Shown piece after piece: positions 23,319-61,181 of a stretch of 64,000 bases of DNA. How positions within the stretch are numbered: the first letter of the stretch is position 1; each line of letters starts with the position of its first letter. The notes beneath the pieces are model-generated. The model ran no database searches and was not told where the DNA came from. It saw only the letters and a list, made by a program, of their open reading frames with translations. The DNA is from Candidatus Dormiibacterota bacterium (GTDB lineage: Bacteria; Chloroflexota; Dormibacteria; Aeolococcales; Aeolococcaceae), in contig CAVZPR010000002.1 of the NCBI GenBank assembly GCA_963777285.1, positions 338,733 to 402,732 of the forward strand, read 5' to 3'. Position numbers and translations under genes: made by a program.

Positions 23319-23506
23319 GAGAGAGCCTGCCCAAGGTGGGCCGGCTGCCCTTTGCCCCCCCTCTCGGGGCGTCCTTGGTCTCCAGGGGCGCCCTTTTTTT
23401 TGTCCGTCGAAGGAATGGCGCCCGTCCGCCGGGAAGATCCGGCGCCGTACGTGGTACAAGTGCGCCAGCGGTCTCTGCAGAGCTGCAGCCAGCGGAGGTG
23501 CATCTC

Positions 23507-24910: not shown

Positions 24911-24930
24911 CAGCGCAACGAGGTGGACAC

Positions 24931-25506
24931 ATGGCGGTGCGTCTGACGCTCAGCCTGGCAATGTGCGCGGTGGTGACTCTTCTCGCCGCATGCGGAGGCG
25001 GCGCGACCTCGCCGCAGGGCAGTCCGTCGCCGGGAGGAGGATCGGGAGGGACCCCCGCCGGCACATCCACCGCCACCGCCGCCCCGGCCATACCCTCGCC
25101 ATGTTCGCTGTTCACGCAAGCGGACGCCGCGACGATCAGCGGCGACCAAGGAGTGTCCACATTCACGAATTCGAAGTACCTGTGCATCTACGGTGCCGGT
25201 GATCCGGCGAACTGCGGCGAGCAGGCGATCTTCTCGATCCTCCCGAGCAGCCACGCGACGCCGGATGTGCTGCAGGGTGCCGCCAAGGCGAACGTGGGCA
25301 AGAGCGCCACGTTTCAACAGGCCTCGGGCATCGGCGACCTCGCCTACAGCTTCACGGCCGACAACGCGGGCTGCAAGGCGGGCGGCGTGGTGTTCGCGAA
25401 GGGAGGCTTCCAAGTCTTGCTGTACGGCATCTCCACGACGAGGGGCGGCGGTACCATGGCAGCGGACGCCGCACCGATCGCAATGAGGATCGCGGGGCAG
25501 ATCTGA
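24931..25506 (+). CDS. lipoprotein, unknown function
   Basis: Lipobox VTLLAAC; AGGTGG SD; 191 aa; starts 21 nt after upstream stop. Confidence 0.55.
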   Translation: MAVRLTLSLAMCAVVTLLAACGGGATSPQGSPSPGGGSGGTPAGTSTATAAPAIPSPCSLFTQADAATISGDQGVSTFTNSKYLCIYGAGDPANCGEQAIFSILPSSHATPDVLQGAAKANVGKSATFQQASGIGDLAYSFTADNAGCKAGGVVFAKGGFQVLLYGISTTRGGGTMAADAAPIAMRIAGQI

Positions 25507-47438: not shown

Positions 47439-47514
47439 GGGTCTCGTGAGGATGCCACAAACGCAACCTGGCCGCGGTGATGATGCGGCTTCACTCTGCT
47501 AGCGTTTCGTCGCT

Positions 47515-47802
47515 ATGGTGGTCGGCACGCTCATGGTGACGCTGCAGGTACCCGAGAGCGGGTCTCTCAAGGACAAGCGGCAGGTGGTCAGATCGCTGAC
47601 CGCGCGCATCCGGCAGACTTTCAATGTGGCGGTCGCCGAGGTCGGCGACCAGAACCTCTGGCAGTCGGCGGTCATCGGCATCGCCTGCGTGAGCGGCGAC
47701 GGACGCCACGCCGACGAGATGTGCCAGAAGGTGCTGCGCTTCGTCGACGAGCACGGTGACGCGCTGGTGCTCGGCTCGCGTTTCGAGCTGGTGCATGTCT
47801 GA
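47515..47802 (+). CDS. DUF503-family protein
   Basis: MVVGTLMVTLQVPESGSLKDKRQVVRSL...FNVAVAEVGDQNLWQSAVIGIACVS matches DUF503 consensus. Confidence 0.7.
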   Translation: MVVGTLMVTLQVPESGSLKDKRQVVRSLTARIRQTFNVAVAEVGDQNLWQSAVIGIACVSGDGRHADEMCQKVLRFVDEHGDALVLGSRFELVHV

Positions 47803-47835
47803 TCCCGCCGCGTCACGGCACACCGCTGCGGCGGC

Positions 47836-50247
47836 GTGACCGAGGAGCTGCTCGCCGCCTACGAGGCCACGCTGCCGTTCAGGCTGGACACGTTCCAACG
47901 CGAGGCGATCGCCAAGCTGGAGCGCTCGCGGGGCGTGCTGGTGAGCGCGCCGACCTCGAGCGGCAAGACGATGGTCGCCGAGTACCTGGTGTGGCGCAGG
48001 CTGAGCGCGCCGCGTCCACTGCGGCGTCCGGTGGGTTCACCGGCGGACGTGGTGTACACGACGCCGCTGAAGGCGCTGAGCAACCAGAAGTTCCGCGACC
48101 TCTGCGACCGCTATGGCGAGTCGAATGTCGGCTTGATCACAGGCGAGCACACCATCAACGACGGGGCGCCCGTGGTCGTGATGACCACCGAGATCCTGCG
48201 CAACGTCTTGTACGACGAGCCGGCGCGGGTCGACCGCGTCGGCGACGTGGTGCTCGACGAGATCCACTACATCGACGACCTTCCCCGCGGGACGGTGTGG
48301 GAGGAGGTGATCATCGAGGCGCCGGCGCACATCCGGCTGACGGGACTCAGCGCCACCATCGGCAACGTCGACGAGATTGCGGCGTGGATGGCCTCACTGC
48401 GCGGCCCCATAGAAACGGTGAAGCGCACGGAGCGGCCGGTGGCCCTGGAGATGTGGCTCGCGATCGACAACGCGCTGCATCCGCTTTTCGACGCACACGG
48501 CAGCGCGGCGCGGCGCACGCTCGAGCTGGCCCAGGCTGATCCCATGACGGACGCGCGCTGGCGCTACGCGAGGCGCGCGCCCGAGAACGACCTGCTGCAC
48601 ATCCTCGAGGAGCTGCGCCGCCGCGCCATGATGCCGGCGATCTACTTCATCTTCTCGCGGCGCGGCTGCCGTGAGGCTCTGGCGCGCTGCGACCTGCACG
48701 GCGTCGACCTGACCACCGCGGCAGAGAAGGCGGCGATCGACGCCGCGCTGCAGCAGCGCCTCGCCGCGGTCGGGGATGCGGATGAGCGGCGGGTCGTGGC
48801 CGCCGCGCTCGACGCGCGCCTCACGCGCCGCGGCGTGGCCATGCACCACGCGGGGATGCTCCCCTACGTCAAGGAGACGGTGGAGCGCCTCTTCCAGCAG
48901 GGCATGATCAAGGCCGTCTTCGCCACGGAGACGCTCTCGCTGGGCCTGAACATGCCGGCGCGGTCCTGCGTCATCTCCACGTTCACCAAGTTCGACGGCA
49001 CCTCGTTCGCGCCTCTCACCAGCGGCGAGCTGACGCAGCTGATGGGACGCGCCGGACGGCGCGGCATCGACACCGTCGGCCACGGCGTGATCCTGAAAGA
49101 GAGCGACGTCGACGTCCGCGACATCTACGACGCGGCGATCTCCGGAGAGTTCTCCGTCGACTCGAAGTTCGCACCGACGTACGCCATGGTGCTCAGCCTG
49201 CTGCGCACGCGCAGCGCGGCGGCGGCGGAAGAGCTGCTGCAACGCTCCTTCGGGCAATACCAGACGACGCGTCGCCTCGACCACTGGGAGCATCGCCGAG
49301 GCAACCTCGAGGAGCGGCTCGCCGACCTGCGCCGGCAGACGTACCGCCACCCCCGCGTTCCCTGCACCGAGCGGACGCTGACCCAGTTCCTGCGCGCGGG
49401 CGCCGAGGTCACCGAGCTGCAGGCGGAGATCCGGCGCGCACGGCGCTCGCACTGGCAGGACCGGCGGCGCGGCCGCTACGGACGCGGCGGGGCCGACCCG
49501 GGACAACGCTACGAGGCGCTGCGGCGGAAGCTCAAGACGGCGCAGCGGCGCGTCGCCGAGACGCCATGCCCCCACTGCCCGTTGCTCACCGAGCACCGCG
49601 CTCACCGCCAGCAGACCGCCGACATCGAAGCGACCCTGGCCGGCGGCGAGGCTGAGCTCGAGTCCGCCAGCCACCGCTACATCCGTGAGTTCCGCGCGCT
49701 GCGTGCCGTGCTGCGTGAGACAGGCTTCCTCGAGGGCGATTCGCCCACGGAGCTGGGGCAGCTCGCCGAGTCGCTGTTCGGCGAAAGTGCCCTGCTGATC
49801 GCGCTGGCGATCGGAGACGGGACGTTCGAGGATCTGCAGCCGGCGGATCTGGCGGCGACGCTGGTGATGCTGGTCGCCGAGGACAGAGGCCGTGACCGGC
49901 CGCGTCCGCAGCGGCGCCGCTTCCCCTCGGCGGCGGTGGACCGCAACCAGCGCGTGCTGCGCCGCGAGTTGGCGCGCCTCGCCGAGGTGGAGCACGATCA
50001 TGGCCTGGCCACGCTGCGGCCGCTCTCCTTCGACTTCATCGACGCGACGTACGCGTGGACGTCCGGCGTCGAGCTCTCGGACATCGAGCCACCTGGTGGC
50101 ACGGATCTCGGCGACGTGGTGAAGGCGATCAAGAACGTCTACTCGCTGCTGCGCCAGATGGAGCAGGCGTTGCGCGGCCATCCACTGCTGCCGCTGGTTC
50201 GCGAGACGCGCGAGCGCACGGAGCGCGACCTGATACGCAGGGTGTGA
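47836..50247 (+). CDS. Ski2-like DEAD/DEAH-box helicase (HelY-like)
   Basis: Walker A APTSSGKT, DEIH box VLDEIHYIDD, helicase C motifs; 803 aa. Confidence 0.85.
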   Translation: MTEELLAAYEATLPFRLDTFQREAIAKLERSRGVLVSAPTSSGKTMVAEYLVWRRLSAPRPLRRPVGSPADVVYTTPLKALSNQKFRDLCDRYGESNVGLITGEHTINDGAPVVVMTTEILRNVLYDEPARVDRVGDVVLDEIHYIDDLPRGTVWEEVIIEAPAHIRLTGLSATIGNVDEIAAWMASLRGPIETVKRTERPVALEMWLAIDNALHPLFDAHGSAARRTLELAQADPMTDARWRYARRAPENDLLHILEELRRRAMMPAIYFIFSRRGCREALARCDLHGVDLTTAAEKAAIDAALQQRLAAVGDADERRVVAAALDARLTRRGVAMHHAGMLPYVKETVERLFQQGMIKAVFATETLSLGLNMPARSCVISTFTKFDGTSFAPLTSGELTQLMGRAGRRGIDTVGHGVILKESDVDVRDIYDAAISGEFSVDSKFAPTYAMVLSLLRTRSAAAAEELLQRSFGQYQTTRRLDHWEHRRGNLEERLADLRRQTYRHPRVPCTERTLTQFLRAGAEVTELQAEIRRARRSHWQDRRRGRYGRGGADPGQRYEALRRKLKTAQRRVAETPCPHCPLLTEHRAHRQQTADIEATLAGGEAELESASHRYIREFRALRAVLRETGFLEGDSPTELGQLAESLFGESALLIALAIGDGTFEDLQPADLAATLVMLVAEDRGRDRPRPQRRRFPSAAVDRNQRVLRRELARLAEVEHDHGLATLRPLSFDFIDATYAWTSGVELSDIEPPGGTDLGDVVKAIKNVYSLLRQMEQALRGHPLLPLVRETRERTERDLIRRV

Positions 50248-51201: not shown

Positions 51202-51316
51202 CGGGGCCCGCGGGTGGCGCGGAGTGGGCCGGTCTTGGTTTCGAGGGACAGGATGCCCGCGTGGACAGCCGTGCCGTCTCTTGTGCTGCGGCCGCGCAGA
51301 CCGTATTAGATTGGTC

Positions 51317-51799
51317 GGCATGCCAGCTCGGAGCACACGGCGTGAAGAACACGTGATCACCCACCGTACCGGCCTCGATGAGCTGCTGATCAAGGTCCAG
51401 CGACTGCACGGCCGTTCACTTCTTGGCGCGGCAGTAAGCTACGGCGACGAGTTGCATCTCGACCTCTACCGCCGTGGCGTCGGTGGCCGCGAGTACATCC
51501 TGGCTACTAGAGCCTCGCATTGGGAGCTGTGCACGGCTGAGGGCACTCTGATCGTCTCCGCTAACCAACCCAAGTCGACGTGGGTCGCACAGCTTGAGCG
51601 GGCCCTCCAATCGGATTGCATAACCGAGACCCGCATCTTGTTCCCGAGCCTTGGTCTCGAGGTGGCATTTGACGGTCTCCTATTCCGTTTGCTCCCGTCC
51701 TCCGACGACCAACTTGCTCGGTGGGAACTGACTGGACCTGGCGATCAGGAACTCGTGGTGGGGCCCGGAAGCCGGTGGTCTTGGGGTCCGGCAGCGTAG
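51317..51799 (+). CDS. hypothetical protein (island gene; lower GC)
   Basis: ORF in lower-GC DNA; start ambiguous (ATG 51317, alt. GTG upstream). Confidence 0.35.
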   Translation, partial: GMPARSTRREEHVITHRTGLDELLIKVQRLHGRSLLGAAVSYGDELHLDLYRRGVGGREYILATRASHWELCTAEGTLIVSANQPKSTWVAQLERALQSDCITETRILFPSLGLEVAFDGLLFRLLPSSDDQLARWELTGPGDQELVVGPGSRWSWGPAA

Positions 51800-51816
51800 T
51801 CACCACCACGTACTCA

Positions 51817-51842
51817 AGGGTGGTTTGCGGATGCTCGCCTGC
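51817..51842 (+). repeat. island repeat copy A (ggtggtttGCGGATGCTCGCCTGCG)
   Basis: Member of 9-copy direct-repeat family, core GCGGATGCTCGC. Confidence 0.5.
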
Positions 51843-51916
51843 GAGAGGAATCCGTGACCTGACGGGTACTGGAGCGCCACTGTTGAGCCACGAAAGTCTG
51901 CCCAATACTGTCCTCT

Positions 51917-52441
51917 GTGAAGGACGCTAACTCCCACCGGATGCTCCTCAGTTTTCCCGGCGCCGCTTCAGTGCGCCGCCGCGCGGGTGCGCCTCCCCCG
52001 GTGGTGACTGCACGGATTCTCCTCGGATGCCAGGGCGCCCTCCTGCTTTCTACGGCTCTCACCTTGTGGCTCTTCAGTACCACCGCGGCCATGATCGCCC
52101 CGGCGGCGCTTGCGGCGTCGCTCTACAACACGGTCAATCCCGGTGTCATGGCAATCATCGCCGCGTCAATTGTGGTTCCGGTCTTGCTCATAGCGTTTAC
52201 CTTTCGGCGTCGCCCCTGGCCCCCGCTCTCAATCCTCCTTATCGAGTCTTTGTATGTCGCTGTCGACATTGCGTCAGGGTTCGCAGGAGGCGTCGCTCCG
52301 CTAGCGAACGGAGCCGAAGGCGTAGCGCTGTTCCTCATGGCAGGACCGGTTGTACTGGCGGGTATGATCGTCGGCTTCCTGTGGGTGCCAACCGCTTCAC
52401 GGGGTTTCTGCCTCGACAACGCCGCCCGCAACGCCCCCTAA
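51917..52441 (+). CDS. hypothetical membrane protein (4 TM)
   Basis: Hydrophobic segments; island location. Confidence 0.4.
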   Translation: MKDANSHRMLLSFPGAASVRRRAGAPPPVVTARILLGCQGALLLSTALTLWLFSTTAAMIAPAALAASLYNTVNPGVMAIIAASIVVPVLLIAFTFRRRPWPPLSILLIESLYVAVDIASGFAGGVAPLANGAEGVALFLMAGPVVLAGMIVGFLWVPTASRGFCLDNAARNAP

Positions 52442-53409
52442 GACTTGCTAGCAGGAAAGGGACGTCTAACAAGACCGCGGCCTGGATGAGCTTGTTCTTC
52501 CTCCACGGCACCCTCGTTGCTCCTTCCTTACCGCTTCGTTCCACCTAGATCAAACGGCCTTCCTATCCTGGAATGGTGCGAATGCCTCCAGCGAAAAGCT
52601 GCTCTCCGCTCGTCCTGTTTTCGGTGCTCGTCGTGGCGACCGCATGTAGCTCGCCTTCGCGGTCGTCGGTGTCGTCAGGGCCTGCCGGCTTGCCACAGGT
52701 ACCGCTGAGTTCGCACCTTTGCTTGCCTGCCGAGGCCGGAACACGCGGTCCAACCCCTACACCTCAATTGCCGTCGGCTGAAGCTTGCCGCCCCCGGCCC
52801 GCCACGTCTGCGTCAGCCGTCCCTACGCCGCTTCCCTAGCTGCGAGCGGAAGCGTCGGGGGTGGTTTTCGAGTCCGCTGTCGGTTAGCGGCCCGCTCCCG
52901 CGACGGGTACACCCTGAGGAGCTTTCCGTCCGTCCCGTCATCCCCGAGATCGTGTTCATGCCAGAGCAGATAGACGCCCATCCGCTAAAGTTACCCCTCG
53001 GCTGTCCGTCAAGTGGGTATGGCGCACCCTGGCGTGGCCGAGCGGCTGGTCCCGTGCGGCCTTCAGGTCAGCAGCTGGTCGAGGAAATCGCGAAGAGTCG
53101 TCTCCAGTTCGGTCATCTCCTGATTAAGGACCCAACCCTTCCGAAACGTTCGCTTGGCGACTGGGAACTCGTACCAGTCGCAGTCGATCTCGATTCCAAT
53201 GCCGAGCGACCTCGAGGATGCCGTACTCCCGATGACGAAGTCTCAACTCGCAACGTCAAAACGCGATTGATACTCGCCCTGCAGTCGACCCGACAATTCC
53301 GACAACTCCTGCCGAGTGGGAAACCGCGGTCAACGCGTAACGCCCTCACCAGCCAATCCTCTCACGCGCCGATCCTGCTCGCCCCCCGTTCGGGCCACGT
53401 GTGCCGCCC

Positions 53410-53445
53410 GCGACGCTTGGGTCAGGGGTGATTAGCCGATGCCGG
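53410..53445 (+). repeat. island repeat copy B (GCGACGCTTGGGTCAGGGGTGATTAGCCGATGCCGG)
   Basis: Extended ~36-nt match to copies C and H. Confidence 0.6.
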
Positions 53446-53530
53446 CCTGTCCAGGGGTGACTGTGCTGAGCCCGAGGCGCTAAGTGCTGGGGAGGGCCCA
53501 CTGGCGTGCTTAGAGGTCTCTATGACCTGA

Positions 53531-54155
53531 TCAACCGAGTCTGAAGACTGCCGTCGCGGTCTCTACGTCTTGACCCAAACCACGAAATTCGACCGTGGCT
53601 GCGTAGTTGCCTGTGGCAGCACCGGTGGAGTCCCAAGTGCAGTCATACCTCATGGATGCACCTGGCGCCATGCGCTCATCGGAAGGAACAATGCCATCGA
53701 CTGTGCAGGCCTGTATTGGAGAGGCATCGGCGGCGGTAATGAGAAACGTAATCCTCGTAGGGGGCGAGCACCCTGATTCAGAGACGTTCGTAAGAACTCC
53801 GGTCATGCTCACCCGCTGGCCCGATGAGTAGATGCGCTGATCAAAGTTGAGCTCGGCACGAAGGTACGAGGGTGGACAGTTGGCGTAGCCACCCGGCGTC
53901 TCTACTGTCCCGGTGAGCGGAACGGCAGTCGGCGTTGGCGGCGCAGTCGCGGCTGCTGTGGGGGACGGCTCTACAGAGGCCGATATTGCCGGCGACGGGG
54001 GCACCGGAGGGAAGATGCGTCGAGGCGCCCGATCCGGGCGTCGACGAGTTGCAGGCGGCAACCGTGAAGCCAAGCACCGTGGCCACTCCCGTGATCGCCA
54101 CGCCAATCAAGCTCGCAATGAAACGAGAGCGCCACTGCGCGCTCGACGGTTTCAT
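53531..54155 (-). pseudogene. membrane-anchored beta-sandwich-domain protein, paralog of 57627..58226, frame disrupted between TM anchor and linker
   Basis: TM anchor FIASLIGVAITGVATVLGFTVAA in frame of ORF 53841..54155; P/A/T linker + conserved domain (CPPSY...YSSGQRVSMTGVLTN...YDCTWDSTGAATGNYAATVEF) in frame of ORF 53531..54106. Confidence 0.45.
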
Positions 54156-54294
54156 CCTCGAAGCTTACGCTGGCGGCGGTTTCGCGGATCACAACGCCAC
54201 TCGTCTCCGTCCCGCCAAGCTGAAGGCGCCGGGACAAACCACCAGCCGTCAAGTGGAAATTGGCGCATCCTCGCCTGTCCCGCGGTCGCCACCC

Positions 54295-54642
54295 TTACGT
54301 GCTGCCTCCGGAAACCGACCCCAGTGCCGAGAGGATCATCACCAGGTTGCCGGGAACGAGTAGGAACGCGAGAACTGCCACCGCGATAGGCCACCACGAG
54401 CGCATCGAGTGGCGTGCCCGTCTTACACGCCAGACAATCAACGAAGCACATGCAACCTGCGCGCCTCCCCACACGAACCCAACCACGAAAGGCCCCCACA
54501 GCCGTAGCGACATTGGCGCCCAGATCCCTACGACCACAACCACCGTCAGGGCCGAGATCAGCCAGAGCGCAGCAAGAGCGAAGATGGGAGCTTCCATAGC
54601 AAGGACCGACCAACGGGGCGGCCCTTTGACGCGTGGTTGCAT
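54295..54642 (-). CDS. hypothetical membrane protein (paralog of 60156..60636)
   Basis: MQPRVKGPPRW... 3-4 TM; ~70% identical to the 60.3-60.6 kb copy. Confidence 0.45.
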   Translation of the reverse strand: MQPRVKGPPRWSVLAMEAPIFALAALWLISALTVVVVVGIWAPMSLRLWGPFVVGFVWGGAQVACASLIVWRVRRARHSMRSWWPIAVAVLAFLLVPGNLVMILSALGSVSGGST

Positions 54643-54728
54643 TCCCCGAATCTCTGTGCTCTCCCTCGCGTCTGCCCGTGCCGTGCGGGCCTCGTTACCG
54701 GTCACCGGGCTCGCTGTGGGAGAACAAA

Positions 54729-54753
54729 GGTGATGCTTGGATGCTTGCCCGCG
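54729..54753 (+). repeat. island repeat copy I (GGTGATGCTTGGATGCTTGCCCGCG)
   Basis: Degenerate copy. Confidence 0.4.
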
Positions 54754-54952
54754 CCTGAAGGCAGTTCCCGTGCCCGCACGGACATGCGATCTCTTCGCAA
54801 GGTGTGGTCACCCACGGCCGTAGCTGGCGGGTCACCTGGTGCGGGACTTGAGGGGTTGGAGCCAGCCGCGTCGTCCTCGAGCTCGTAGCGAGCAGCGGCG
54901 AGTTGGCGGATTGTCGGCTCCTCGTTCACAGGTACGGGATGACGTCTACTGA

Positions 54953-54994
54953 GCGACCCTTGCTCAGGGGTGATTAGCGGATGCTCGCGTGCGG
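54953..54994 (+). repeat. island repeat copy C (GCGACCCTTGCTCAGGGGTGATTAGCGGATGCTCGCGTGCGG)
   Basis: Best copy; defines consensus. Confidence 0.6.
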
Positions 54995-55037
54995 CGTCTC
55001 GATGTGCGCCGGTGCCGGTTGGTAGGTGGACTTCGCC

Positions 55038-55442
55038 TCAGGACATGCGCCGGCGCCGTCTCCGTTTGCGACGGTGGGGCGGCTGGACTGCCCTGGTAGT
55101 CAGCGGCGATGCGTCTACAAGGCCGGCCGCCTCAAATGCACCCGGCTCCTCCATCCAGCTACGTGCCGGCCGCTCGTCGTTGTGATGGCGGCGCCGCTGG
55201 TCTTGCGCTAGTCGATGGCTGGCTTCGCGCCGCGCTTCCTCGGCTGGACTAACTATGAACTGTGGCAGGTAGGGCGGCTCGTCAGCCCCGGCGCCAATAG
55301 GCCCAACTCCGTCAGGGTATGGCCTGTTCGTCCCAATGGCGGGTTCTTTGTTGGGACGTCCCCTGAACCCATACCAGAACAGGCCGAGCAGGCAAGCCGT
55401 CAAGATCCCAATCGTCACCAGAATCGGTACCACGTCTGACAT
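55038..55442 (-). CDS. hypothetical membrane protein with basic C-terminal tail
   Basis: N-terminal TM VVPILVTIGILTACLLGLFWY; poly-Arg tail. Confidence 0.3.
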   Translation of the reverse strand: MSDVVPILVTIGILTACLLGLFWYGFRGRPNKEPAIGTNRPYPDGVGPIGAGADEPPYLPQFIVSPAEEARREASHRLAQDQRRRHHNDERPARSWMEEPGAFEAAGLVDASPLTTRAVQPPHRRKRRRRRRMS

Positions 55443-55511
55443 CGTTCCACTGACCGCCGGTGCTCGTCAAACGCCGTTTTCGGGGTAGGCCGCCCCTGCA
55501 CGTCGCGTAGA

Positions 55512-55530
55512 CACTGGCGGATGCTGGGGT
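55512..55530 (+). repeat. island repeat copy D (cactgGCGGATGCTGGGGT)
   Basis: Core-only copy, immediately upstream of the doc module. Confidence 0.4.
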
Positions 55531-55632
55531 GGGCGCCCGACGCTACCCCTCACCGACATCGCCCGATGCCTCGACGACTGCTCCCCACCGACCGTCACCG
55601 GGACGCGGGGGAAGCAGTAAAATCATCACGAC

Positions 55633-55806
55633 GTGATTCGCGATCTCCATCGCCAAGCGGCCCCGCGGCGAAGCGATGTCGCCACGGTGACATCCTCACA
55701 GCTCCGGAAGCGCGTAAGCGCCACGATCCGGCGGGTTGCGCGCGAGGACCGGAGCATATTGAAGGCGCTTGCCGCCTTCGACCGTGGCGAGCGCCCAGCC
55801 GACTGA
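55633..55806 (+). CDS. putative Phd/YefM-like antitoxin partner of Doc (tentative)
   Basis: Small ORF directly upstream of and overlapping doc; TVTSSQLRKRVSATIRRVAREDRS resembles antitoxin N-termini. Confidence 0.3.
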   Translation: MIRDLHRQAAPRRSDVATVTSSQLRKRVSATIRRVAREDRSILKALAAFDRGERPAD

Positions 55807-56209
55807 GCCGGTCTATTACCTGACGTCAGCGGACTTGGTGCGCTGCCATGCGGCGGCCCTGGAGATCGCGGAATCGACGGCGCGGCATCACGTGTTGCAC
55901 CGCGACGGGCTTCTTTCCGCCCTCGAGCGACCGCGCTGGCACGCTCATTACCGCAAGTCCGATCTGATCGACCAGGCGGCCGTACTCGCCGAGGGTCTGG
56001 TGGCCAGCCACGCATGGGTGGATGGGAACAAACGCACGACATGGGTGGCGGTGCGAACGTTTCTCGATGTGAACAGGCTTCGCTGGCTCAAGGCGCCGGA
56101 CGTCGTTGACGTTGTCGCGCAGCTGACCGGGCTGACCACGCGACGAATCAAGGGTCCAGAGTTTGCGACCTGGTTGCGCCCGCGGCTGCACTTAGCGGGG
56201 CGACGGTAG
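55784..56209 (+). CDS. Doc (death-on-curing) / Fic-family toxin
   Basis: Fic motif variant HAWVDGNKRTTWVAVRTFL (HxxxDGNKR); size ~140 aa. Confidence 0.65.
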   Translation: MASAQPTEPVYYLTSADLVRCHAAALEIAESTARHHVLHRDGLLSALERPRWHAHYRKSDLIDQAAVLAEGLVASHAWVDGNKRTTWVAVRTFLDVNRLRWLKAPDVVDVVAQLTGLTTRRIKGPEFATWLRPRLHLAGRR

Positions 56210-56674
56210 ATAAGCGTCGGCGTACATTCACGAATACTCGCCTGCCCGACCAGCGACTACGTCGGCGCTGATGCGCACGTTCGATGGCCGTTCGTCCTAT
56301 TCGCGCTGTGATCTGCGCTGGGTGTGAAATTGAAGGTGGCCCGGTAGTCGCCGTTTTCTGTGCGGTAGCCGGAGTTGCACTCGGTAGCCGTCAAACGCCA
56401 GTGTCCGTCACCATCGGCGCACCATGCGCACTAGCAGCCTGTTCGCCCAACATCGAGCAGGTGTCACCGGTGTCACGCTTCACCGCCAAGATCGGCACAT
56501 CCATGCCGCCGGCGCTTCGCGTGGCGCTGGAGTCGCGCTCTGACAACCCGGCGGCGGTGCTGCAACCGGGGCGTGGCCTGGCCCACCCGGCAGTGCAGTG
56601 GGCTGCTCGGCGACGCGTGCCATCTCAGCGCCATGCGCATTGCCCAACCCTGGCTGCGCGATTAGGGCGAGTGC

Positions 56675-57097
56675 GTGCCTCAGCTCGACGACATCGGAGC
56701 GGCCGAGAGGCGTTACCGTAGCTCGGTGGACCAGGAGCGGCGAAACTCGGGCCTTGCGCATGAACATGTCCGTCGGGCGCTGATCGAGAAGCGAGCCGAA
56801 CTGCTCGCGAAGGTGGAGCAGCTAGGTGCCCACGACCCCGCGGAGGCGTCGAATCTCAACTTCGGCAAGCGCATCGGCGACGGGACCAGCTATGCCGTGG
56901 AGCGCATGACCGGCGCGTACCACGCACGCACTCTGTACGAGACGGTCCGAGAGATCGAAAGCTCGCTCGTTCGCTTAGACGAGGGCACGTACGGGCTGTG
57001 CGCCTCATGCGGCAAGCCGATTCCCACGGCGCGCCTCGACTTGGTCCCGTGGGCAGCGCTCTGCGTCCCGTGCAGTGCGCCAGCACGCCGCCGATGA
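56675..57097 (+). CDS. TraR/DksA-family C4 zinc-finger protein
   Basis: C-terminal CASCGKPIPTARLDLVPWAALCVPC. Confidence 0.65.
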   Translation: MPQLDDIGAAERRYRSSVDQERRNSGLAHEHVRRALIEKRAELLAKVEQLGAHDPAEASNLNFGKRIGDGTSYAVERMTGAYHARTLYETVREIESSLVRLDEGTYGLCASCGKPIPTARLDLVPWAALCVPCSAPARRR

Positions 57098-57202
57098 GCC
57101 GCGCCGGCCGCTTCGGACGGCGGCGAAAGCCCGCGTGCTGCGAACTGCGCCCGCGAGGCTCCCGATGGCTCTGCGACGGCCGCGTCCCGGTTCGCTTGCC
57201 CG

Positions 57203-57228
57203 GAGGTGACTTGCGGATGCACGCGTGC
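57203..57228 (+). repeat. island repeat copy E (gaGGTGAcTTGCGGATGCACGCGTGC)
   Basis: Copy upstream of intact beta-sandwich paralog. Confidence 0.45.
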
Positions 57229-57626
57229 TCAGCGCCTCTCTGCTCGCGCGAGAATAACGATCCCGTGACACAGAGGCCCTAGGAGTGACCGCTGCGGAGG
57301 GAAACCCACCCGAGACCGTCGAGCGCACCGAGTCCCTTCGTCGCATCCTTGATCCGCTCCGTGCGCAGCTGGGGCAGATCCCTGGATGCAACAGCAACGG
57401 CATCGGATTGACCGCCGCCGCCTTCGTTCGACTAAGGTCGAGTGGCGGAGAGCCCGAAAGCGTCAGGCCCGACGACACGGTAATCACCGTGGGCTTCGAG
57501 ACCGAGGAGTACCTGGATGCGGGCCGCGCCCGCGTTGACGAGATCCTTGGTGACGTGCCTCACGAATGCAAGGTGAGTGGCCGAATCGTTCTCCTGTGAC
57601 CCCGCAGGTCGTGCTAACGTCGGCCC

Positions 57627-58226
57627 GTGCGCTGGCGCAAATGGGACAGGGCCGCGGTAGGACTCGGCGTGGTCGCGGCCGTGCTGGTAGTGATGTTGGT
57701 CGTCTTCGCGCGCGAGCACGCTCCTGCGACGACCGATGCTCACGCCACGGCAGCGGCGAACGCAGCTGCCGCGATCGCGGGTGCAGCGTCACCATCCGCC
57801 GTCCCTTCAGAGCCAGCCATGCCTTCGTCCACCCCGACGCGCTCGTCGGGTCCCGTTACTGTGAATGGATACGTCCTTTGCCCTGCGTCATACTTCAGCG
57901 CCACCCTCACTATTGGTCGGGCGAGCTACGCCTCTGGTCAAACGATAACCATGACGAGCGCTCTCACCAATTCGTCCACCACTTCTTGTTCCGGGCTGAC
58001 TGAATTCCGATTCCTGATCACGGTTTCCGCCGGCTCCCCACGCACTGCATGTTCAGAAGGGGGTCTGGTACCGCCTCACACGTATGTAGCTCCGGGCGCG
58101 TCGCAATCGTACGACTGCAGCTGGGATTCGACAGGAGCTCCAACCGGTCGATACACTGCCACCGTGCAATTCGTCGATCAGCAAGACGACACTGCGGACG
58201 CCACTGCTACGTTCGCCATCACCTGA
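57627..58226 (+). CDS. membrane-anchored beta-sandwich-domain protein (intact paralog of 53531..54155)
   Basis: TM AAVGLGVVAAVLVVMLVVFA, A/P-rich linker, domain CPASYFSATLTIGRASYASGQTITMTSALTN...YDCSWDSTGAPTGRYTATVQF. Confidence 0.5.
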   Translation: MRWRKWDRAAVGLGVVAAVLVVMLVVFAREHAPATTDAHATAAANAAAAIAGAASPSAVPSEPAMPSSTPTRSSGPVTVNGYVLCPASYFSATLTIGRASYASGQTITMTSALTNSSTTSCSGLTEFRFLITVSAGSPRTACSEGGLVPPHTYVAPGASQSYDCSWDSTGAPTGRYTATVQFVDQQDDTADATATFAIT

Positions 58227-58280
58227 GCCGGCACCGGCGACAGCCTTTCTCGACGGCCGATGACGTCGGCTATCGGTACA

Positions 58281-58300
58281 CTTGGGGATGCTCGCCTCGG
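58281..58300 (+). repeat. island repeat copy F (cttgGGGATGCTCGCCTCGG)
   Basis: Core-only copy, 3' of beta-sandwich paralog. Confidence 0.4.
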
Positions 58301-58409
58301 TGACAGGGCGAAGTCCGCAGGCCCATTCGGCTTTGCTCATCCTTGCTTGCGACGGTCGCTGGGTCGTCGCTGCGAGCAGTCTTGCCGAAGCCTATAAGCT
58401 CTCGCCTCG

Positions 58410-58640
58410 ATGACGAGCCATCCGGACAACCCGCCGGCGCCACCCGGCGGTGCATGCCTGGGATGCGGCGCGCCGGTGGTGAGCCTGGGCGTCGCGAACT
58501 TCCGCATCGGTGGAACGCGGGGTGGTGCAAAGCTTGTGTTCGGCGAACTGGCGGAGCTCGGTGAGGAAATGCTGACGATGGAGGTGCTGGCCTGCCGGGA
58601 GTGCTGGCGCGTCGAACTCCGGATCCCTCGCGACGCTTGA
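58410..58640 (+). CDS. small zinc-ribbon protein
   Basis: CLGCG...CRECW pairs; 76 aa. Confidence 0.35.
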   Translation: MTSHPDNPPAPPGGACLGCGAPVVSLGVANFRIGGTRGGAKLVFGELAELGEEMLTMEVLACRECWRVELRIPRDA

Positions 58641-58833
58641 TCTCTCAGTCGACGCCGTCGGGCGACGATTGCCTAAAGCGATCATTTGCAGCACCCGCCG
58701 ACTGCATTCGGGTCGAAGTCCCCGGGAATCACAGTGGCGCAACACCGCTACCGCAGCCCGCTGGACTCATCCCATCCCGCGGTCTTGGCATGCCCGCCCG
58801 TAACGACGCCACGCTTCCATCGTTCGATCGAAT

Positions 58834-59376
58834 GTGCAGGTACGCGTTGGACTGGCCGCTATTGGGCTCTCGGTCGTTCTTGCCGCCTGCGGAGGCCGTG
58901 GTGCCGCCGCAGGCGACCGGCTCAGCCCGTCTGCGACGCCTGTCCCCGCGACCGACTCGCCCGCGCCGAAGTCGTCAACACCGCCCACGTTCCCGCCATG
59001 CGCGCCCGTGGTAACCGCCACGCCAGGTCTCGATGACGGCAGCGTCCAGGTGGGCCCTGACTCTTGGGACGATTTTCAAACGTCGAATCAGTGGCGCGGG
59101 CCGATGAACGGATCGAACACGCGCTGGTACCACGTCTACGCGGGAATGACCGGCGACGCCGCGAACCCGCCACGTGTGCCGGCGGTTTGGGTCGACGTGA
59201 CAACGGTCACCCCTGATCGTTGCACCATCGACGTCAGGACGGTCGGCGACTTCACGGACCGCGACGCCGGTGGCGCCCTGAGGATCACGGCCGTTGACGG
59301 GTCGGTGGTCCACCTTCAGGCCACCTCAGGTCGCCGCCTCGCATTCGATCTTTCGACCGACCGGTTCACGGGCTGA
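58834..59376 (+). CDS. lipoprotein, unknown function
   Basis: Lipobox VVLAACGG; Pro/Thr-rich linker then folded domain. Confidence 0.5.
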   Translation: MQVRVGLAAIGLSVVLAACGGRGAAAGDRLSPSATPVPATDSPAPKSSTPPTFPPCAPVVTATPGLDDGSVQVGPDSWDDFQTSNQWRGPMNGSNTRWYHVYAGMTGDAANPPRVPAVWVDVTTVTPDRCTIDVRTVGDFTDRDAGGALRITAVDGSVVHLQATSGRRLAFDLSTDRFTG

Positions 59377-59418
59377 CCGACCGCCACGAAAAGGCGTGCG
59401 GATGGTGGTCTGCCGAAG

Positions 59419-59991
59419 TCACCCTTCGCCCGAGCCTCGTTTCGGCGGGTACGCGACTAACCTCAGCGCCTCTTGTGTTCGCTGTAGGTGTAACTCTGAC
59501 GGTTCGCTACCAGCAGCGATCGCCTGTTGGAACCGATCCGCCGAGGCTTCCAGCGACTGCTCCGCCCGGTAGCGGTGAAGCCATCCGAGAAAATGAGCAG
59601 CGGGCCCATACCCCGAGTCGGCAAGCGCCGACAGCGCAGCGTACCCGCTCTTCACGTCACCCGCCCTGATGCTGTCGAGTGCGCCTTGCATGTCGTCTTC
59701 GAGCTTCGGCGCCTCGGATCCGTAGCGATCCAGCCAGGCCATGAGAACGGCAGCCGGGCGCGATCCCCCTCCGGCGAGCGCCTCCAAGTGCGACCGCCCG
59801 CTCGCCAGATCGCCGCGGCGAACCTCAGCGAGGGCCTCACGGATCCCGTGGTCGACGGGCGTTTTCTCGACGTTTCCGGCCGAGCTCCGCAGCCGCTCAG
59901 CGGCTAGCCGCCATTCCTCGTCTACGGTGGTCAACTCTCGCACCTGGTCGCCGCATCCTAGCTGCACCTGATCCACCCGTCGAGTAGACAT
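59419..59991 (-). CDS. Sel1-like repeat protein
   Basis: Tandem repeats GDLASGRSHLEALAGGGSRPAAVLMAWLDRYG / GDVKSGYAALSALADSGYGPAAHFLGWLHRYR; ATG 59991. Confidence 0.5.
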   Translation of the reverse strand: MSTRRVDQVQLGCGDQVRELTTVDEEWRLAAERLRSSAGNVEKTPVDHGIREALAEVRRGDLASGRSHLEALAGGGSRPAAVLMAWLDRYGSEAPKLEDDMQGALDSIRAGDVKSGYAALSALADSGYGPAAHFLGWLHRYRAEQSLEASADRFQQAIAAGSEPSELHLQRTQEALRLVAYPPKRGSGEG

Positions 59992-60058
59992 TCGCGGACG
60001 CTGGCCTGGCCAAGACCCGTCGGCCCTGCGGGCGCAGGACTGAGCGGGGCGCGCTCTT

Positions 60059-60280
60059 TCAATGCAGGACCGCCGCAACGACAAGACCGGCGACAATGCC
60101 AATGACGCAGTAAGCGACTATGACCAGGTTGACGGCGTGGCGTATGCGGGCCCTCTCAGCCACCGACCGAGCTGGGTCCCGCCATGGGGCGTTCGGCCTG
60201 AGCCGCAGATAGAGGTAGCCCACGGTACCAACGACCACCGCCGCGAACGGACCCGAAGCCGCGATTAGGACGAAGCGCAC
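60059..60280 (-). CDS. small membrane protein (2 TM)
   Basis: 73 aa hydrophobic ORF. Confidence 0.3.
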   Translation of the reverse strand: MRFVLIAASGPFAAVVVGTVGYLYLRLRPNAPWRDPARSVAERARIRHAVNLVIVAYCVIGIVAGLVVAAVLH

Positions 60281-60636
60281 GCACGATCCTCGCGTTCGCC
60301 TCGATCGAGCGCCACCCGAGCGTCAAGACGATCATCATCAGATTGCCCGGGATAAGCAGAAACGCGAGAACCGCGACCGCCACTGGCCACCATGAGCGCA
60401 TGGGATGCAGTGCGCGTCGCAGTCGCCAGGCACAAACCCAGCGAACGCGATCTGCACGCCCCCCACACGAACCCAACCAAGAAAGGCCCCCAGACCCGTA
60501 GCACTACCGGCGCCCAGATCCCTTCGACTACAACCACCGTCAGTGCTGTCATCAGCCACAGCGCAGGAAGTGCGAAAACGGCTAATCCGGTAGCAACAGC
60601 CGACCAGGTGCGTGGTCCTTGGGCCCGCGGCTGCAT
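60156..60636 (-). pseudogene. frameshifted paralog of membrane protein 54295..54642
   Basis: N-part MQPRAQGPRTWSAVATGLAVFALPALWLMTALTVVVVEGIWAPVVLRVWGPFLVGFVWG in ORF 60265..60636; C-part HPMRSWWPVAVAVLAFLLIPGNLMMIVLTLG in ORF 60156..60476. Confidence 0.4.
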
Positions 60637-60715
60637 TCCCCAAATCTATGGCCGCTTCGTGCCCTGCCCCCTTTCCGTGCTGGCCTCGTTACCCGCCTGC
60701 GGGGTCGCTGTCGCT

Positions 60716-60738
60716 GGGGGTGATCGCGGATGCTGGCA
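60716..60738 (+). repeat. island repeat copy G (GGGGGTGATCGCGGATGCTGGCA)
   Basis: Copy. Confidence 0.5.
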
Positions 60739-60812
60739 CGGCCCAGAGCTCCGTCACATGGGCGCGACGGGGCCGCATCTTTGGGCGCACTCGCCAGCGT
60801 TAGCCTCGGCAG

Positions 60813-61181
60813 GTGCGCCGACAGACCGGGAGAGCGGCCCGACTGATTGCGCTGTCGGTCGTTACGATCTCAGCCATAGCCTGTGGATCGAGTCCAGAGC
60901 CATCGCGATCGACCGCGCGTTCTCTGCAATCTTTGCTTGACGGTTTAAGCGGGACTTGCGCGCAGGTCGGGACGCCCGTAGCGTCTCCGACACCATGCCC
61001 GCCTGTTGTACCGAGTGCTTCGGCGCAGTCCTCTCCTGGGATGCCGCCCCCGCGACACCCTTACGCTGAGATTGCGCCCTGCCAGGCCGGCCCTTCGGGG
61101 GTGATTGGCGGATGCTGGCCTCATCCACCGACCTCGCCCCGCGATCTACCCGAGCGTGTCGGCCTCCAACCGATCGAGTAA
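60813..61181 (+). CDS. small lipoprotein; C-terminal region encoded by a copy of the island repeat
   Basis: Lipobox ISAIACGSS; Cys/Pro-rich C-half ...APCQAGPSGVIGGCWPHPP. Confidence 0.4.
   Translation: MRRQTGRAARLIALSVVTISAIACGSSPEPSRSTARSLQSLLDGLSGTCAQVGTPVASPTPCPPVVPSASAQSSPGMPPPRHPYAEIAPCQAGPSGVIGGCWPHPPTSPRDLPERVGLQPIE
61052..61120 (+). repeat. island repeat copy H (GCGACACCCTT...CGGGGGTGATTGGCGGATGCTGGCC, with internal insertion)
   Basis: Last copy at island 3' edge; extended left arm GCGACaCCCTT matches B and C. Confidence 0.5.

What the first reader, a model, noticed from the sequence alone, without database searches (positions are those of the whole stretch)
53531..60636. Two paralogous gene modules in the island, each with one intact and one frameshifted copy
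(i) Beta-sandwich-domain membrane protein: 57627..58226 (+) is intact with TM anchor, A/P-rich linker and domain. 53531..54155 (-) has the same parts split over two frames (ORFs 53841..54155 and 53531..54106), with a shift around 54,016-54,053. Conserved blocks are CP.SY...Y.SGQ...MT..LTN.S...CS.....F.ITV/A...SP..AC...G.VP......APGAS..YDC.WDSTGA.TG.Y.ATV.F. (ii) Multi-TM membrane protein: 54295..54642 (-) is intact. 60156..60636 (-) is split between ORFs 60265..60636 and 60156..60476. This points to module duplication (intra-island or repeated acquisition) followed by decay of one copy, typical of fast-evolving accessory loci. The repeat copies lie next to these modules (B/I/C near module 1; E/F/G/H near module 2).
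Basis: seen in the sequence. Interest (0 to 1): 0.55.

Follow-up and report, generated by a model that had tools for sequence, protein, structure and literature searches.

The report
Paralogous orphan genes in cassette-like array
Two tiny orphan gene families each occur twice in a foreign-looking 10-kb island, one copy of each broken by small indels; the copies look like separately acquired single-gene cassettes, bounded by a one-directional ~30-bp motif also seen in arrays from other organisms, not like local duplicates.

Summary
A 115-aa multi-TM protein gene is intact at 54295..54642(-). Its copy at 60288..60636(-) is broken by two 1-nt deletions and a 3' lesion. An exported beta-sandwich protein gene is intact at 57627..58226(+). 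Its copy at 53531..54155(-) needs a +1 shift between a lipoprotein signal and the domain.

There is no duplicated two-gene module, and no sign of a recent local duplication. The membrane copies are 74.7% identical to each other and 72.8-76.9% identical to copies on metagenome contigs, giving a star-like tree. The beta-sandwich copies share 49% of residues.

The island (about 51.2-61.4 kb) has GC3 0.61-0.79 against 0.84-0.96 in core genes. It carries at least 10 copies of a ~30-nt motif, all on the + strand and mostly intergenic. The same motif, in one orientation, separates single small genes on contigs L001 and L002/L013. Homology among the four membrane-gene loci starts and ends at the motif.

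Best reading: the paralogues are separately acquired cassettes in an integron-like array. No recombinase was found and the site is not attC-like. One redundant copy of each family is decaying. Sequencing error cannot be excluded, especially for the single beta-sandwich frameshift.

The parts
57627..58226 (+). Intact beta-sandwich gene (199 aa). It has an N-terminal hydrophobic anchor or signal, an A/P-rich linker, and a 4-Cys Ig-like domain (domain about 57852-58223).
   Evidence: ORF list. AF2 model pLDDT 92.4, all-beta. FnIII/MG2-like fold matches. Remote BsuPI-like homology.
53531..54155 (-). Frameshifted beta-sandwich paralogue. The lipoprotein signal (54155 to about 54051, lipobox VAAC) is in one frame. 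The P/A/T linker and domain (domain 53534-53911) are in the +1 frame.
   Evidence: Repair by removing one base gives a 207-aa lipoprotein. Homologue P0004 is also a lipoprotein.
53985..54052 (-). Interval that must contain the +1 frameshift of the 53-kb copy. The best candidate is the C5 run at 53997-54001.
   Evidence: Three-frame translation and reconstruction. The frame plot was uninformative because the linker is P/A-rich.
54295..54642 (-). Intact small multi-TM membrane protein gene (115 aa), copy 1.
   Evidence: End-to-end match to the 116-aa proteins P0001 and P0002. No Pfam, NCBIfam or PADLOC family.
54643..54722 (-). Conserved 5' region of the membrane-gene cassette. A TAGNNT-type -10 box lies about 6 nt before the ATG in copy 2, L001 and L002; copy 1, at these coordinates, reads GAGATT instead (leaderless-type start inferred). 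An invariant GGTAACGA block is present.
   Evidence: Four-locus alignments. The promoter reading is inference only.
60288..60636 (-). Degraded membrane-gene copy 2. It has a 1-nt deletion in the G6 run 60459-60464 and a 1-nt deletion at CC 60429-60430. A 3' lesion at 60288-60320 removes the usual C-terminus and stop codon.
   Evidence: The repaired translation is still family-like and dN/dS is about 0.3.
60059..60280 (-). 73-aa two-TM ORF in the same inter-motif interval as copy 2, in a third frame, with an AGGA-type ribosome-binding site. It may be a separate small gene or part of a rearranged copy 2.
   Evidence: No homologues found. Status uncertain.
57285..57599 (+). 104-aa ORF sharing the inter-motif interval (57233-58279) with the intact beta-sandwich gene, 27 nt upstream on the same strand.
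   Evidence: No family hit.
51813..51844 (+). Motif copy (consensus tCAGGGGTGATTnGCGGATGCTCGCCTG).
   Evidence: E 4e-7.
53419..53455 (+). Motif copy, at the 3' side of the frameshifted beta-sandwich gene.
   Evidence: E 2.7e-6.
54246..54283 (+). Motif copy (second subtype) between the frameshifted beta-sandwich gene and membrane copy 1.
   Evidence: E 4e-6.
54723..54756 (+). Motif copy about 80 nt upstream of membrane copy 1.
   Evidence: E 8e-4.
54961..54995 (+). Motif copy (best match to the consensus).
   Evidence: E 2.6e-8.
56216..56249 (+). Motif copy 7 nt after the stop codon of the Doc toxin gene.
   Evidence: E 2e-4.
57196..57233 (+). Motif copy opening the interval that holds the intact beta-sandwich gene.
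   Evidence: E 6e-6.
59978..60012 (+). Motif copy that was not in the training set. It closes the interval holding membrane copy 2.
   Evidence: (E 4.7e-5).
60713..60745 (+). Motif copy about 80 nt upstream of membrane copy 2.
   Evidence: E 1e-3.
61090..61126 (+). Last strong motif copy of the array.
   Evidence: E 5e-7.

Best explanation
The four genes are members of two rare orphan families. One is a 115-aa multi-TM membrane protein. The other is an exported protein (lipid- or TM-anchored) with a disulfide-capable Ig-like beta-sandwich domain distantly related to BsuPI/DUF4232. They are cargo of a horizontally acquired island at about 51.2-61.4 kb.

The island is built as an array of short gene cassettes. 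At least 10 strong copies of a ~30-bp motif, plus several degenerate ones, all in one orientation, separate intervals of 0.2-3 kb. Most intervals hold one or two small genes on either strand. Each of the four paralogue copies sits in its own interval.

The paralogues are old and divergent. They most likely entered as separate cassettes, or were shuffled between arrays, by recombination at the motif (inferred). A local duplication is less likely.

Because each family is redundant in the island, one copy is being lost. Membrane copy 2 carries two 1-nt deletions at short homopolymers and a 3' lesion, so it is a pseudogene. The 53-kb beta-sandwich copy carries one +1 frameshift in its linker. All lesions look recent, because the repaired reading frames are still conserved.

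Shown: paralogy, lesions, motif array, composition, homology breakpoints, star-like divergence. Inferred: site-specific recombination at the motif, the order of events, and that the indels are biological.
For: Paralogy and lesions. The intact length of the membrane family comes from P0001 and P0002.

No extended module: the island self-comparison finds only the two gene pairs.

Star-like divergence: for the membrane gene, for the beta-sandwich family.

Foreign composition: island GC3 is 0.61-0.79 and core GC3 is 0.84-0.96.

Motif array: the window has 10 hits with E <= 1e-3, all on the + strand and all between 51.8 and 61.1 kb. The other 50 kb has none. The 16 best hits with filters off are also all on the + strand. 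L001 has 7 hits plus one at 2885-2925 found by eye, and L002/L013 has 3; all are on one strand and in the same orientation relative to the membrane gene. The control loci L003, L004 and L008-L010 have no hit; the viral contigs L011 and L012, picked by a partial pattern match, give one partial hit each and no array.

In L001 six of the seven inter-motif intervals hold exactly one called gene and one is empty.

Identity among the four membrane-gene loci is about 0.3 outside the two flanking motif copies and 0.6-0.87 between them.

Each array or its edge carries a toxin-antitoxin pair, as is known for chromosomal integrons (own knowledge): a Doc toxin gene (Pfam Fic/DOC) with a small upstream ORF that has no family hit and is only presumed to be its antitoxin in the window, and VapBC in L001.

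Purifying selection until recently: dN/dS is 0.24-0.32, and the repaired copy 2 reads as a family member even between its two deletions.

Assembly quality: core genes give full-length Pfam matches with no split genes.
Against: No integrase, transposase or other recombinase was found in the island, on its flanks, or in any scanned ORF of the 64-kb window. None lies next to the array in L001 either.

The motif shows no attC-like hairpin. Mean folding z-score is about 0. Only a weak dyad is present.

Only three arrays are known, and two of them were found through the membrane gene itself, which is an ascertainment bias.

Some window intervals hold several genes, and 57233-59978 has only weak internal sites.

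All three frame-disrupting indels lie in or next to short homopolymers, and the repaired ORFs look functional. That pattern is also what consensus errors would produce. The window is probably from a metagenome or a close relative of one: L014 from run ERR11594400 is 100% identical over 1541 nt.

No relative of either family was found in 185,579 species-representative genomes. Those scans used only one or two short peptide patterns each, so divergent relatives could have been missed. Mobility between known genomes therefore cannot be documented.
Confidence: 0.55

Rival explanations
1. The frameshifts are sequencing or assembly errors at homopolymers. All four genes would then be intact and functional, and there is no decay.
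For: The lesions sit at a G6 run (L001 has G7 at the same place), a CC and probably a C5 run. Repaired copy 2 and the repaired beta-sandwich copy read as well-conserved proteins with all four Cys retained, and dN/dS is about 0.3. The window is probably derived from a metagenome, or is a close relative of an organism in one, and islands are prone to mixed-strain consensus.
Against: About 40 core ORFs over about 50 kb show full-length domain matches and no split genes. Copy 2 needs three independent lesions. One of them is a roughly 20-nt difference at the 3' end that removes the stop codon, which is not a homopolymer miscall.
Confidence: 0.25
2. The paralogues arose by duplication inside the island. 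They then diverged for a long time, were rearranged, and one copy of each was lost.
For: Both families occur twice within 7 kb. Both are so rare elsewhere that co-occurrence by independent acquisition seems a coincidence.
Against: The window copies are no closer to each other than to copies from other organisms. Similarity stops at the motif copies and no flanks are shared. The beta-sandwich copies are on opposite strands and differ in export signal, lipobox against TM anchor. The families are never paired elsewhere.
Confidence: 0.12
3. The ~30-nt motif is a regulatory site, an operator or activator site of an island-specific regulon, and not a recombination site. The paralogues are simply co-regulated accessory genes.
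For: The motif lies at a conserved distance, about 80-110 nt upstream of the ATG, in all four membrane-gene loci. It is short and unstructured, like a protein-binding site.
Against: All 21 copies with E <= 1e-3 keep one orientation per array, although genes lie on both strands. Given each array's first copy, the chance of that under random orientation is about 4e-6. Many copies lie just after stop codons (for example 56216, 51813, 54246), not upstream of genes. Homology between cassette copies ends at the motif on both sides.
Confidence: 0.15
4. The indels are reversible slipped-strand (phase-variation) switches that turn surface-protein genes on and off.
For: The products are exported or membrane proteins. 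The indels are in G and C runs.
Against: The runs are only 5-6 nt long. Copy 2 needs two separate events and also has a non-repeat 3' lesion. No population data are available.
Confidence: 0.05

Closest known systems
Sedentary chromosomal integron cassette arrays and CALINs (clusters of attC sites lacking an integrase)
   Same: The array consists of short, mostly single-gene units of unknown function separated by a recurring site in one orientation. Toxin-antitoxin units are present. The same cassette occurs in different arrays with different neighbours. Paralogous and degraded cassettes occur within one array. Composition is atypical.
   Different: No IntI or any other recombinase was found. 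The site is about 30 bp, without the R''/R' boxes (RYYYAAC / GTTRRRY) and without a stable hairpin. Genes lie on both strands and at least the membrane cassette carries its own promoter-like 5' region. The host has Actinomycetota-like gene content, and complete integrons were not found in that phylum in the 2016 survey (PMC4889954).
Tandem accretion of integrative elements at one att site (for example composite SCC islands with repeated direct repeats)
   Same: Direct repeats in a single orientation bound successive pieces of foreign DNA. The integrase may be absent from remnants.
   Different: The units here are 0.2-3 kb, not tens of kb. The arrays lie at different chromosomal sites (between an M48 peptidase gene and a CMD-family gene (Pfam PF02627) in the window, next to sdh in L001). 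No target gene or tRNA supplies the repeat.
BsuPI (PF12690) / DUF4232 (PF14016) Ig-like domains of secreted and membrane-anchored proteins
   Same: All-beta Ig/FnIII-like sandwich. Typical architecture of signal or anchor, low-complexity linker and domain. A profile of the window domains reaches proteins whose matched region is a BsuPI domain. hhalign gives probability 96%.
   Different: The window proteins do not reach the Pfam thresholds: 14.7 bits against 22.9 for one copy, and no hit for the other. They form a very small subfamily with four conserved Cys; only three close relatives were found among 1.84 billion representative proteins.
pdif / Xer-dependent modules on Acinetobacter plasmids
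   Same: Small gene modules bounded by ~28-bp recombination sites. The same module occurs in different contexts. Host recombinases act in trans, so no recombinase is adjacent.
   Different: pdif sites flank modules in inverted orientation and resemble dif (own knowledge). Here all sites are direct, are not AT-rich in the centre, and show only weak arm symmetry.

Membership tests
Integron / CALIN | Integron integrase (IntI tyrosine recombinase) adjacent to the array. It is required for an integron but not for a CALIN. | tested here: not met
   Pfam, NCBIfam and PADLOC scans of island ORFs, flanks and the core ORFs of the window found no recombinase. None was found next to the L001 array.
Integron / CALIN | attC sites: 57-141 nt imperfect palindromes with R''(RYYYAAC)/R'(GTTRRRY) boxes that fold as hairpins. 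| tested here: not met
   The logo of 20 copies shows a ~28-nt core without these boxes. Folding of +/-40 nt around 19 copies gives mean z of -0.18 (top strand) and +0.32 (bottom strand). The attC covariance model itself was not available.
Integron / CALIN | Several sites on the same strand, less than 4 kb apart, separating short cassettes. | tested here: met
   10 strong copies in 9.3 kb, all on the + strand. L001 has 8 copies in 2.9 kb, all on one strand.
Integron / CALIN | Cassettes are mostly promoterless and co-oriented with the array. | tested here: not met
   Genes lie on both strands. The membrane cassette has a conserved promoter-like 5' region.
BsuPI (PF12690) | Score at or above the Pfam gathering threshold. 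| tested here: not met
   14.7 bits against 22.9 for the 53-kb copy, and no hit for the 57-kb copy.
BsuPI-like / E-set Ig-like beta-sandwich (remote homology and fold) | Profile-level homology to BsuPI-containing proteins, and an Ig/FnIII-like sandwich fold. | tested here: met
   hmmsearch hits to multi-domain BsuPI/DUF4232/MG2 proteins. hhalign probability 96%, E 3e-9, to the BsuPI region of P0010. AF2 pLDDT 92.4 with nine strands. Foldseek hits to RbmA FnIII, GH3 FnIII-like and alpha2-macroglobulin MG2 domains.
Bacterial lipoprotein (53-kb beta-sandwich copy) | Positively charged n-region, hydrophobic h-region, and lipobox [LVI][ASTVI][GAS]C. | tested here: met
   MKPSSAQWRSRFIASLIGVAITGVATVLGFTVAAC in ORF 53841..54155. 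Judged by eye; no predictor was run.
Pseudogene (membrane copy 2) | Frame-disrupting lesions relative to several intact homologues. | tested here: met
   Two 1-nt deletions and loss of the usual stop codon, relative to copy 1, L001 and L002. Whether the lesions are biological could not be tested, because no reads were available.
Phase-variable contingency locus | Long simple-sequence tract (usually 7-8 nt or more) in the coding region, with length heterogeneity in the population. | tested here: not met
   The tracts are 5-6 nt. Heterogeneity is not testable with these tools.
REP/RAYT-type extragenic repeats | Stable imperfect palindrome, dispersed genome-wide, in both orientations. | tested here: not met
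   No stable hairpin. No copies in the 50-kb core of the window. A single orientation throughout.

The most novel reading that the evidence does not exclude
The island, together with the arrays on L001 and L002/L013, represents a previously undescribed gene-cassette system of high-G+C Gram-positive-type bacteria. Single small genes, mostly membrane or exported proteins and toxin-antitoxin pairs, would be captured, shuffled and lost by site-specific recombination at a ~30-bp unstructured, directional double-stranded site. The recombinase would be encoded elsewhere. The system would be functionally analogous to integrons but mechanistically unrelated to attC/IntI. On this reading the two 'paralogous modules' are independently captured cassette alleles. 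The period-3 conservation inside the motif would be a trace of its origin from a coding-gene end.
Probability: 0.3. Interest if true: 0.8.

Novelty: new variant of a known kind. Interest (0 to 1): 0.5.

Why it matters
On its own, 'two orphan families, one copy of each broken' is ordinary island turnover. The context is what matters. The copies are bounded by a directional ~30-bp motif that also bounds single-gene units in arrays from other organisms, and the same cassette appears in three arrays with different neighbours.

If this is a recombination site, it would be an integron-like route of gene capture in a lineage whose core genes look Actinomycetota-like. Complete integrons were not found in that phylum in the 2016 survey (PMC4889954). 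It would also explain how tiny orphan envelope-protein genes spread.

The idea is directly testable by a motif survey, by read mapping, and by PCR for circular cassettes.

The work also places a very rare 4-Cys Ig-like domain as a remote relative of BsuPI/DUF4232.

Tried and rejected
1. A word-indexed search of 5.8 billion proteins with the intact beta-sandwich protein found nothing. With a 9-sequence profile it found only three distant proteins, all in core-like contexts without the motif.
2. Scans of the species-representative genomes with both families found no relatives. Each scan was seeded by only one or two short peptide patterns from the query, so sensitivity is limited.
3. The metagenome scan with the beta-sandwich profile gave one locus, L003. 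There the homologue P0004 lies next to tRNA-Gly, with no motif.
4. Plasmid searches with island DNA, the membrane protein and the motif gave nothing, or only chance-level hits with E >= 1. A viral-contig pattern scan gave two single chance matches.
5. Rfam found nothing at gathering score, and only two sub-threshold chance hits in the island.
6. The GC3 frame plot could not localise the beta-sandwich frameshift. The island's GC3 signal is weak and the P/A-rich linker confounds it.
7. I tested whether the motif is an SD+ATG start of a small ORF. Only about half of the copies have an ATG, and the resulting ORFs are 3-49 codons with no common product. Rejected as a coding start.
8. I tested a hairpin or attC-like structure. 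Rejected.
9. I looked for left-arm or right-arm linkage of motif halves to neighbouring cassettes. No clear signal.
10. I considered the 191-aa ORF next to the first site (51224..51799) as a candidate recombinase. It has no Pfam hit and no convincing PDB hit.
11. Exact-protein look-ups of window proteins to find the source genome or sister strains gave only a 1.5-kb contig, L014, away from the island.

Full report
**Observation.**

The ORF list and pairwise comparisons confirm both paralogue pairs.

- Beta-sandwich family. The proteins of 57627..58226(+) and 53531..54106(-) align over 121 residues at 49% identity (E 3e-36).
- The 53-kb copy has its export signal in a different frame, in ORF 53841..54155: MKPSSAQWRSRFIASLIGVAITGVATVLGFTVAAC. 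This is a lipoprotein signal with lipobox VAAC.
- The domain frame upstream of the linker reads as Arg-rich nonsense. The signal frame downstream of about 53985 reads as Cys/Arg-rich nonsense. One extra base must therefore lie between about 54050 and 53985. Removing one C from the C5 run at 53997-54001 restores a 207-aa lipoprotein.
- Membrane family. 54295..54642(-) encodes 115 aa. Two metagenome proteins of 116 aa, P0001 and P0002, match it end to end at 71% and 68% identity, so this copy is intact.
- Copy 2 matches copy 1 in two frames. A four-way DNA alignment with L001 and L002 shows two 1-nt deletions specific to copy 2: one in a G6 run at 60459-60464, where L001 has G7, and one at CC 60429-60430. 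It also shows a lesion of roughly 20 nt at the 3' end that removes the family's C-terminus and stop codon.

**What the proteins are.**

Neither family has a Pfam, NCBIfam or PADLOC assignment.

- The beta-sandwich family is very rare. A word-indexed search of 5.8 billion clusters found nothing.
- An exhaustive HMMER search of 1.84 billion representatives found three close relatives, P0003-P0005. P0004 is a lipoprotein, and P0005 is TM-anchored with an S/T/P linker.
- That search also returned a tail of multi-domain proteins whose matched regions are BsuPI, DUF4232 or MG2 domains. hhalign links the family profile to the BsuPI region of P0010 with 96% probability.
- AlphaFold2 gives a confident nine-strand sandwich (pLDDT 92.4). 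Its best PDB matches are FnIII/Ig-like domains: RbmA, the GH3 C-terminal domain and alpha2-macroglobulin MG2.
The family is a remote, 4-Cys offshoot of BsuPI-like extracytoplasmic domains. Its biochemical role is unknown; a binding or protease-inhibitor role at the cell envelope is only a guess from the relatives.
- The membrane protein is a 3-4-TM orphan.

**No two-gene module and no recent duplication.**

- Self-comparison of the island finds only the two gene pairs.
- The families are adjacent only at 53.5-54.6 kb. Homologues elsewhere never pair them.
- The two membrane copies are 74.7% identical over 324 aligned coding columns. Their identities to L001 and L002 are 72.8-76.9%. Informative sites split 6/7/8 among the three four-taxon topologies.
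- The second beta-sandwich copy is as far from the first (48%) as P0003 is (48%).

This is a star-like pattern. It fits independent acquisition of diverged alleles, or a duplication as old as the whole family.

**The context: a cassette-like array.**

- Island genes have GC3 of 0.61-0.79, against 0.84-0.96 for core genes.
- The island lies between an M48 peptidase gene and a CMD-family (Pfam PF02627) / two-component gene block.
- A sequence-only model built from 17 copies finds 10 copies in the window with E <= 1e-3. All are on the + strand and all lie between 51.8 and 61.1 kb. The other 50 kb has none, and the control loci L003, L004 and L008-L010 have none; the pattern-selected viral contigs L011 and L012 give only one partial hit each.
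- With filters off, the 16 best hits are all on the + strand. The weaker ones (53010, 55503, 58279, 52853) also fall between genes.
- Contig L001 has seven copies in the model search plus one at 2885-2925 found by eye, all within 2.9 kb and all on one strand. Six of the seven intervals between them hold exactly one called gene, on either strand, and one interval is empty.
- L002/L013 has three copies, flanking the membrane gene and its neighbour.
- In all four loci the motif has the same orientation relative to the membrane gene. Sliding identity among the loci is about 0.3 outside the two flanking motif copies and 0.6-0.87 between them.
- Each array or its edge carries a toxin-antitoxin pair. 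The window has a Doc toxin gene (55769..56209, Pfam Fic/DOC) preceded by a small ORF (55633..55806) that has no family hit and is only presumed to be its antitoxin; L001 has VapBC.
- The arrays lie at different chromosomal places. L001's array is next to an sdh operon.

**Reading of the context.**

A site that keeps one orientation per array while genes point both ways does not behave like a promoter or operator. Given the first copy of each array, the chance of that under random orientation is about 4e-6. The site also bounds the unit of homology shared between arrays.

The closest analogy is an integron or CALIN cassette array, or tandem accretion at an att site. The defining integron features fail, however.

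- No recombinase was found in any scanned ORF of the window or next to the L001 array.
- The motif has no R''/R' boxes and no stable hairpin.
- Genes lie on both strands, and the membrane cassette carries its own promoter-like 5' region.
- Complete integrons were not found in Actinobacteria in the 2016 survey (PMC4889954). The core genes of the window (arg, pst-phoU, thi, serS, lysS, greA, helY-type helicase) are consistent with that phylum. The taxon could not be verified.

One unexplained detail concerns conservation inside the motif. Its right half shows period-3 conservation (AT-n-CT-n-GC-n-TG), as in coding DNA. The motif may descend from the end of a protein-coding target gene.

**Are the frameshifts real?**

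For:
- About 40 core ORFs give full-length domain matches with no split genes.
- Copy 2 has three independent lesions, one of which is not a homopolymer event.

Against:
- All single-base events lie in short G or C runs.
- The repaired ORFs remain well conserved. dN/dS is about 0.3, and even the 31 nt between the two deletions of copy 2 still encode the family consensus.
- The window's organism occurs in a metagenome run: L014 is 100% identical over 1541 nt. A MAG origin with consensus problems in a strain-variable island is therefore possible.

My estimates are about 70% that copy 2 is a true, recent pseudogene, and about 50-55% that the single beta-sandwich frameshift is biological.

**Verdict.**

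The finding itself is ordinary island turnover. The array of directional ~30-bp sites that frames it, and that recurs around the same cassette in other organisms, is the part worth following up. Its mechanism is inferred, not shown.

Noticed in passing
window 51813-61126 (motif copies), L001 1-2925, L013 224-1110: Information inside the ~30-nt motif has a period of 3: ATT, GCG, AT, CT, GC and TG are conserved, and every third base varies. This looks like coding DNA. The + strand reads SD-like GGGGTGAT followed by AT[N] CT[N] GC[N] TG[N]. The - strand reads CA[N] GC[N] AG[N] AT[N] CGC (T)AA. Only about half of the copies have an ATG.
   Followed up: partly
window 55633-56209: A Doc-type toxin gene (55769..56209, Pfam Fic/DOC E 1e-9) preceded by a small ORF (55633..55806) that has no family hit; reading it as the antitoxin is a guess. 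The pair occupies one inter-motif interval (55533-56216). L001 has a VapBC pair at the edge of its array.
   Followed up: partly
window 56675-57097: A DksA/TraR-type C4 zinc-finger protein (PF01258, E 5e-11) is encoded in its own inter-motif interval of the island.
   Followed up: no
window 59419-60102 (-): This ORF contains an internal tandem duplication of about 50 aa (59560-59715 against 59713-59868, tblastx). It has no family assignment. A motif copy (59978-60012) overlaps its annotated 5' end, so the true start is probably further downstream.
   Followed up: no
window 52573-52839, 58834-59376, 60813-61181: Three more small ORFs in the island begin with lipoprotein-type signals (lipoboxes ATAC, LAAC, AIAC). 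Other intervals encode small TM proteins (51917..52441, 55038..55442). The cargo is strongly biased towards envelope proteins, as it also is in L001.
   Followed up: partly
L003 281-358 and 590-1240: P0004, one of the three close homologues of the beta-sandwich protein and a lipoprotein, lies about 230 nt from a tRNA-Gly(CCC) gene on a soil metagenome contig. The contig has no motif copy.
   Followed up: partly
window 46538-48078 = L014: A 1541-nt Logan contig from run ERR11594400 is 100% identical to the window. The source organism, or a near-identical strain, is present in that sample. None of the island genes is in the protein collections.
   Followed up: partly
window 23336-25506: Between greA and dus lie a 524-aa secreted protein with about 45-aa Cys/Trp repeats and a C-terminal LPxTG-like anchor, and an adjacent lipoprotein ORF. 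GC is lower here (0.64 in 23-24 kb). This may be a second small accessory insert.
   Followed up: no
window 54756-54960 and L001 1811-2008: Both arrays contain one inter-motif interval of about 200 nt without a convincing gene. The two intervals are not similar to each other.
   Followed up: partly
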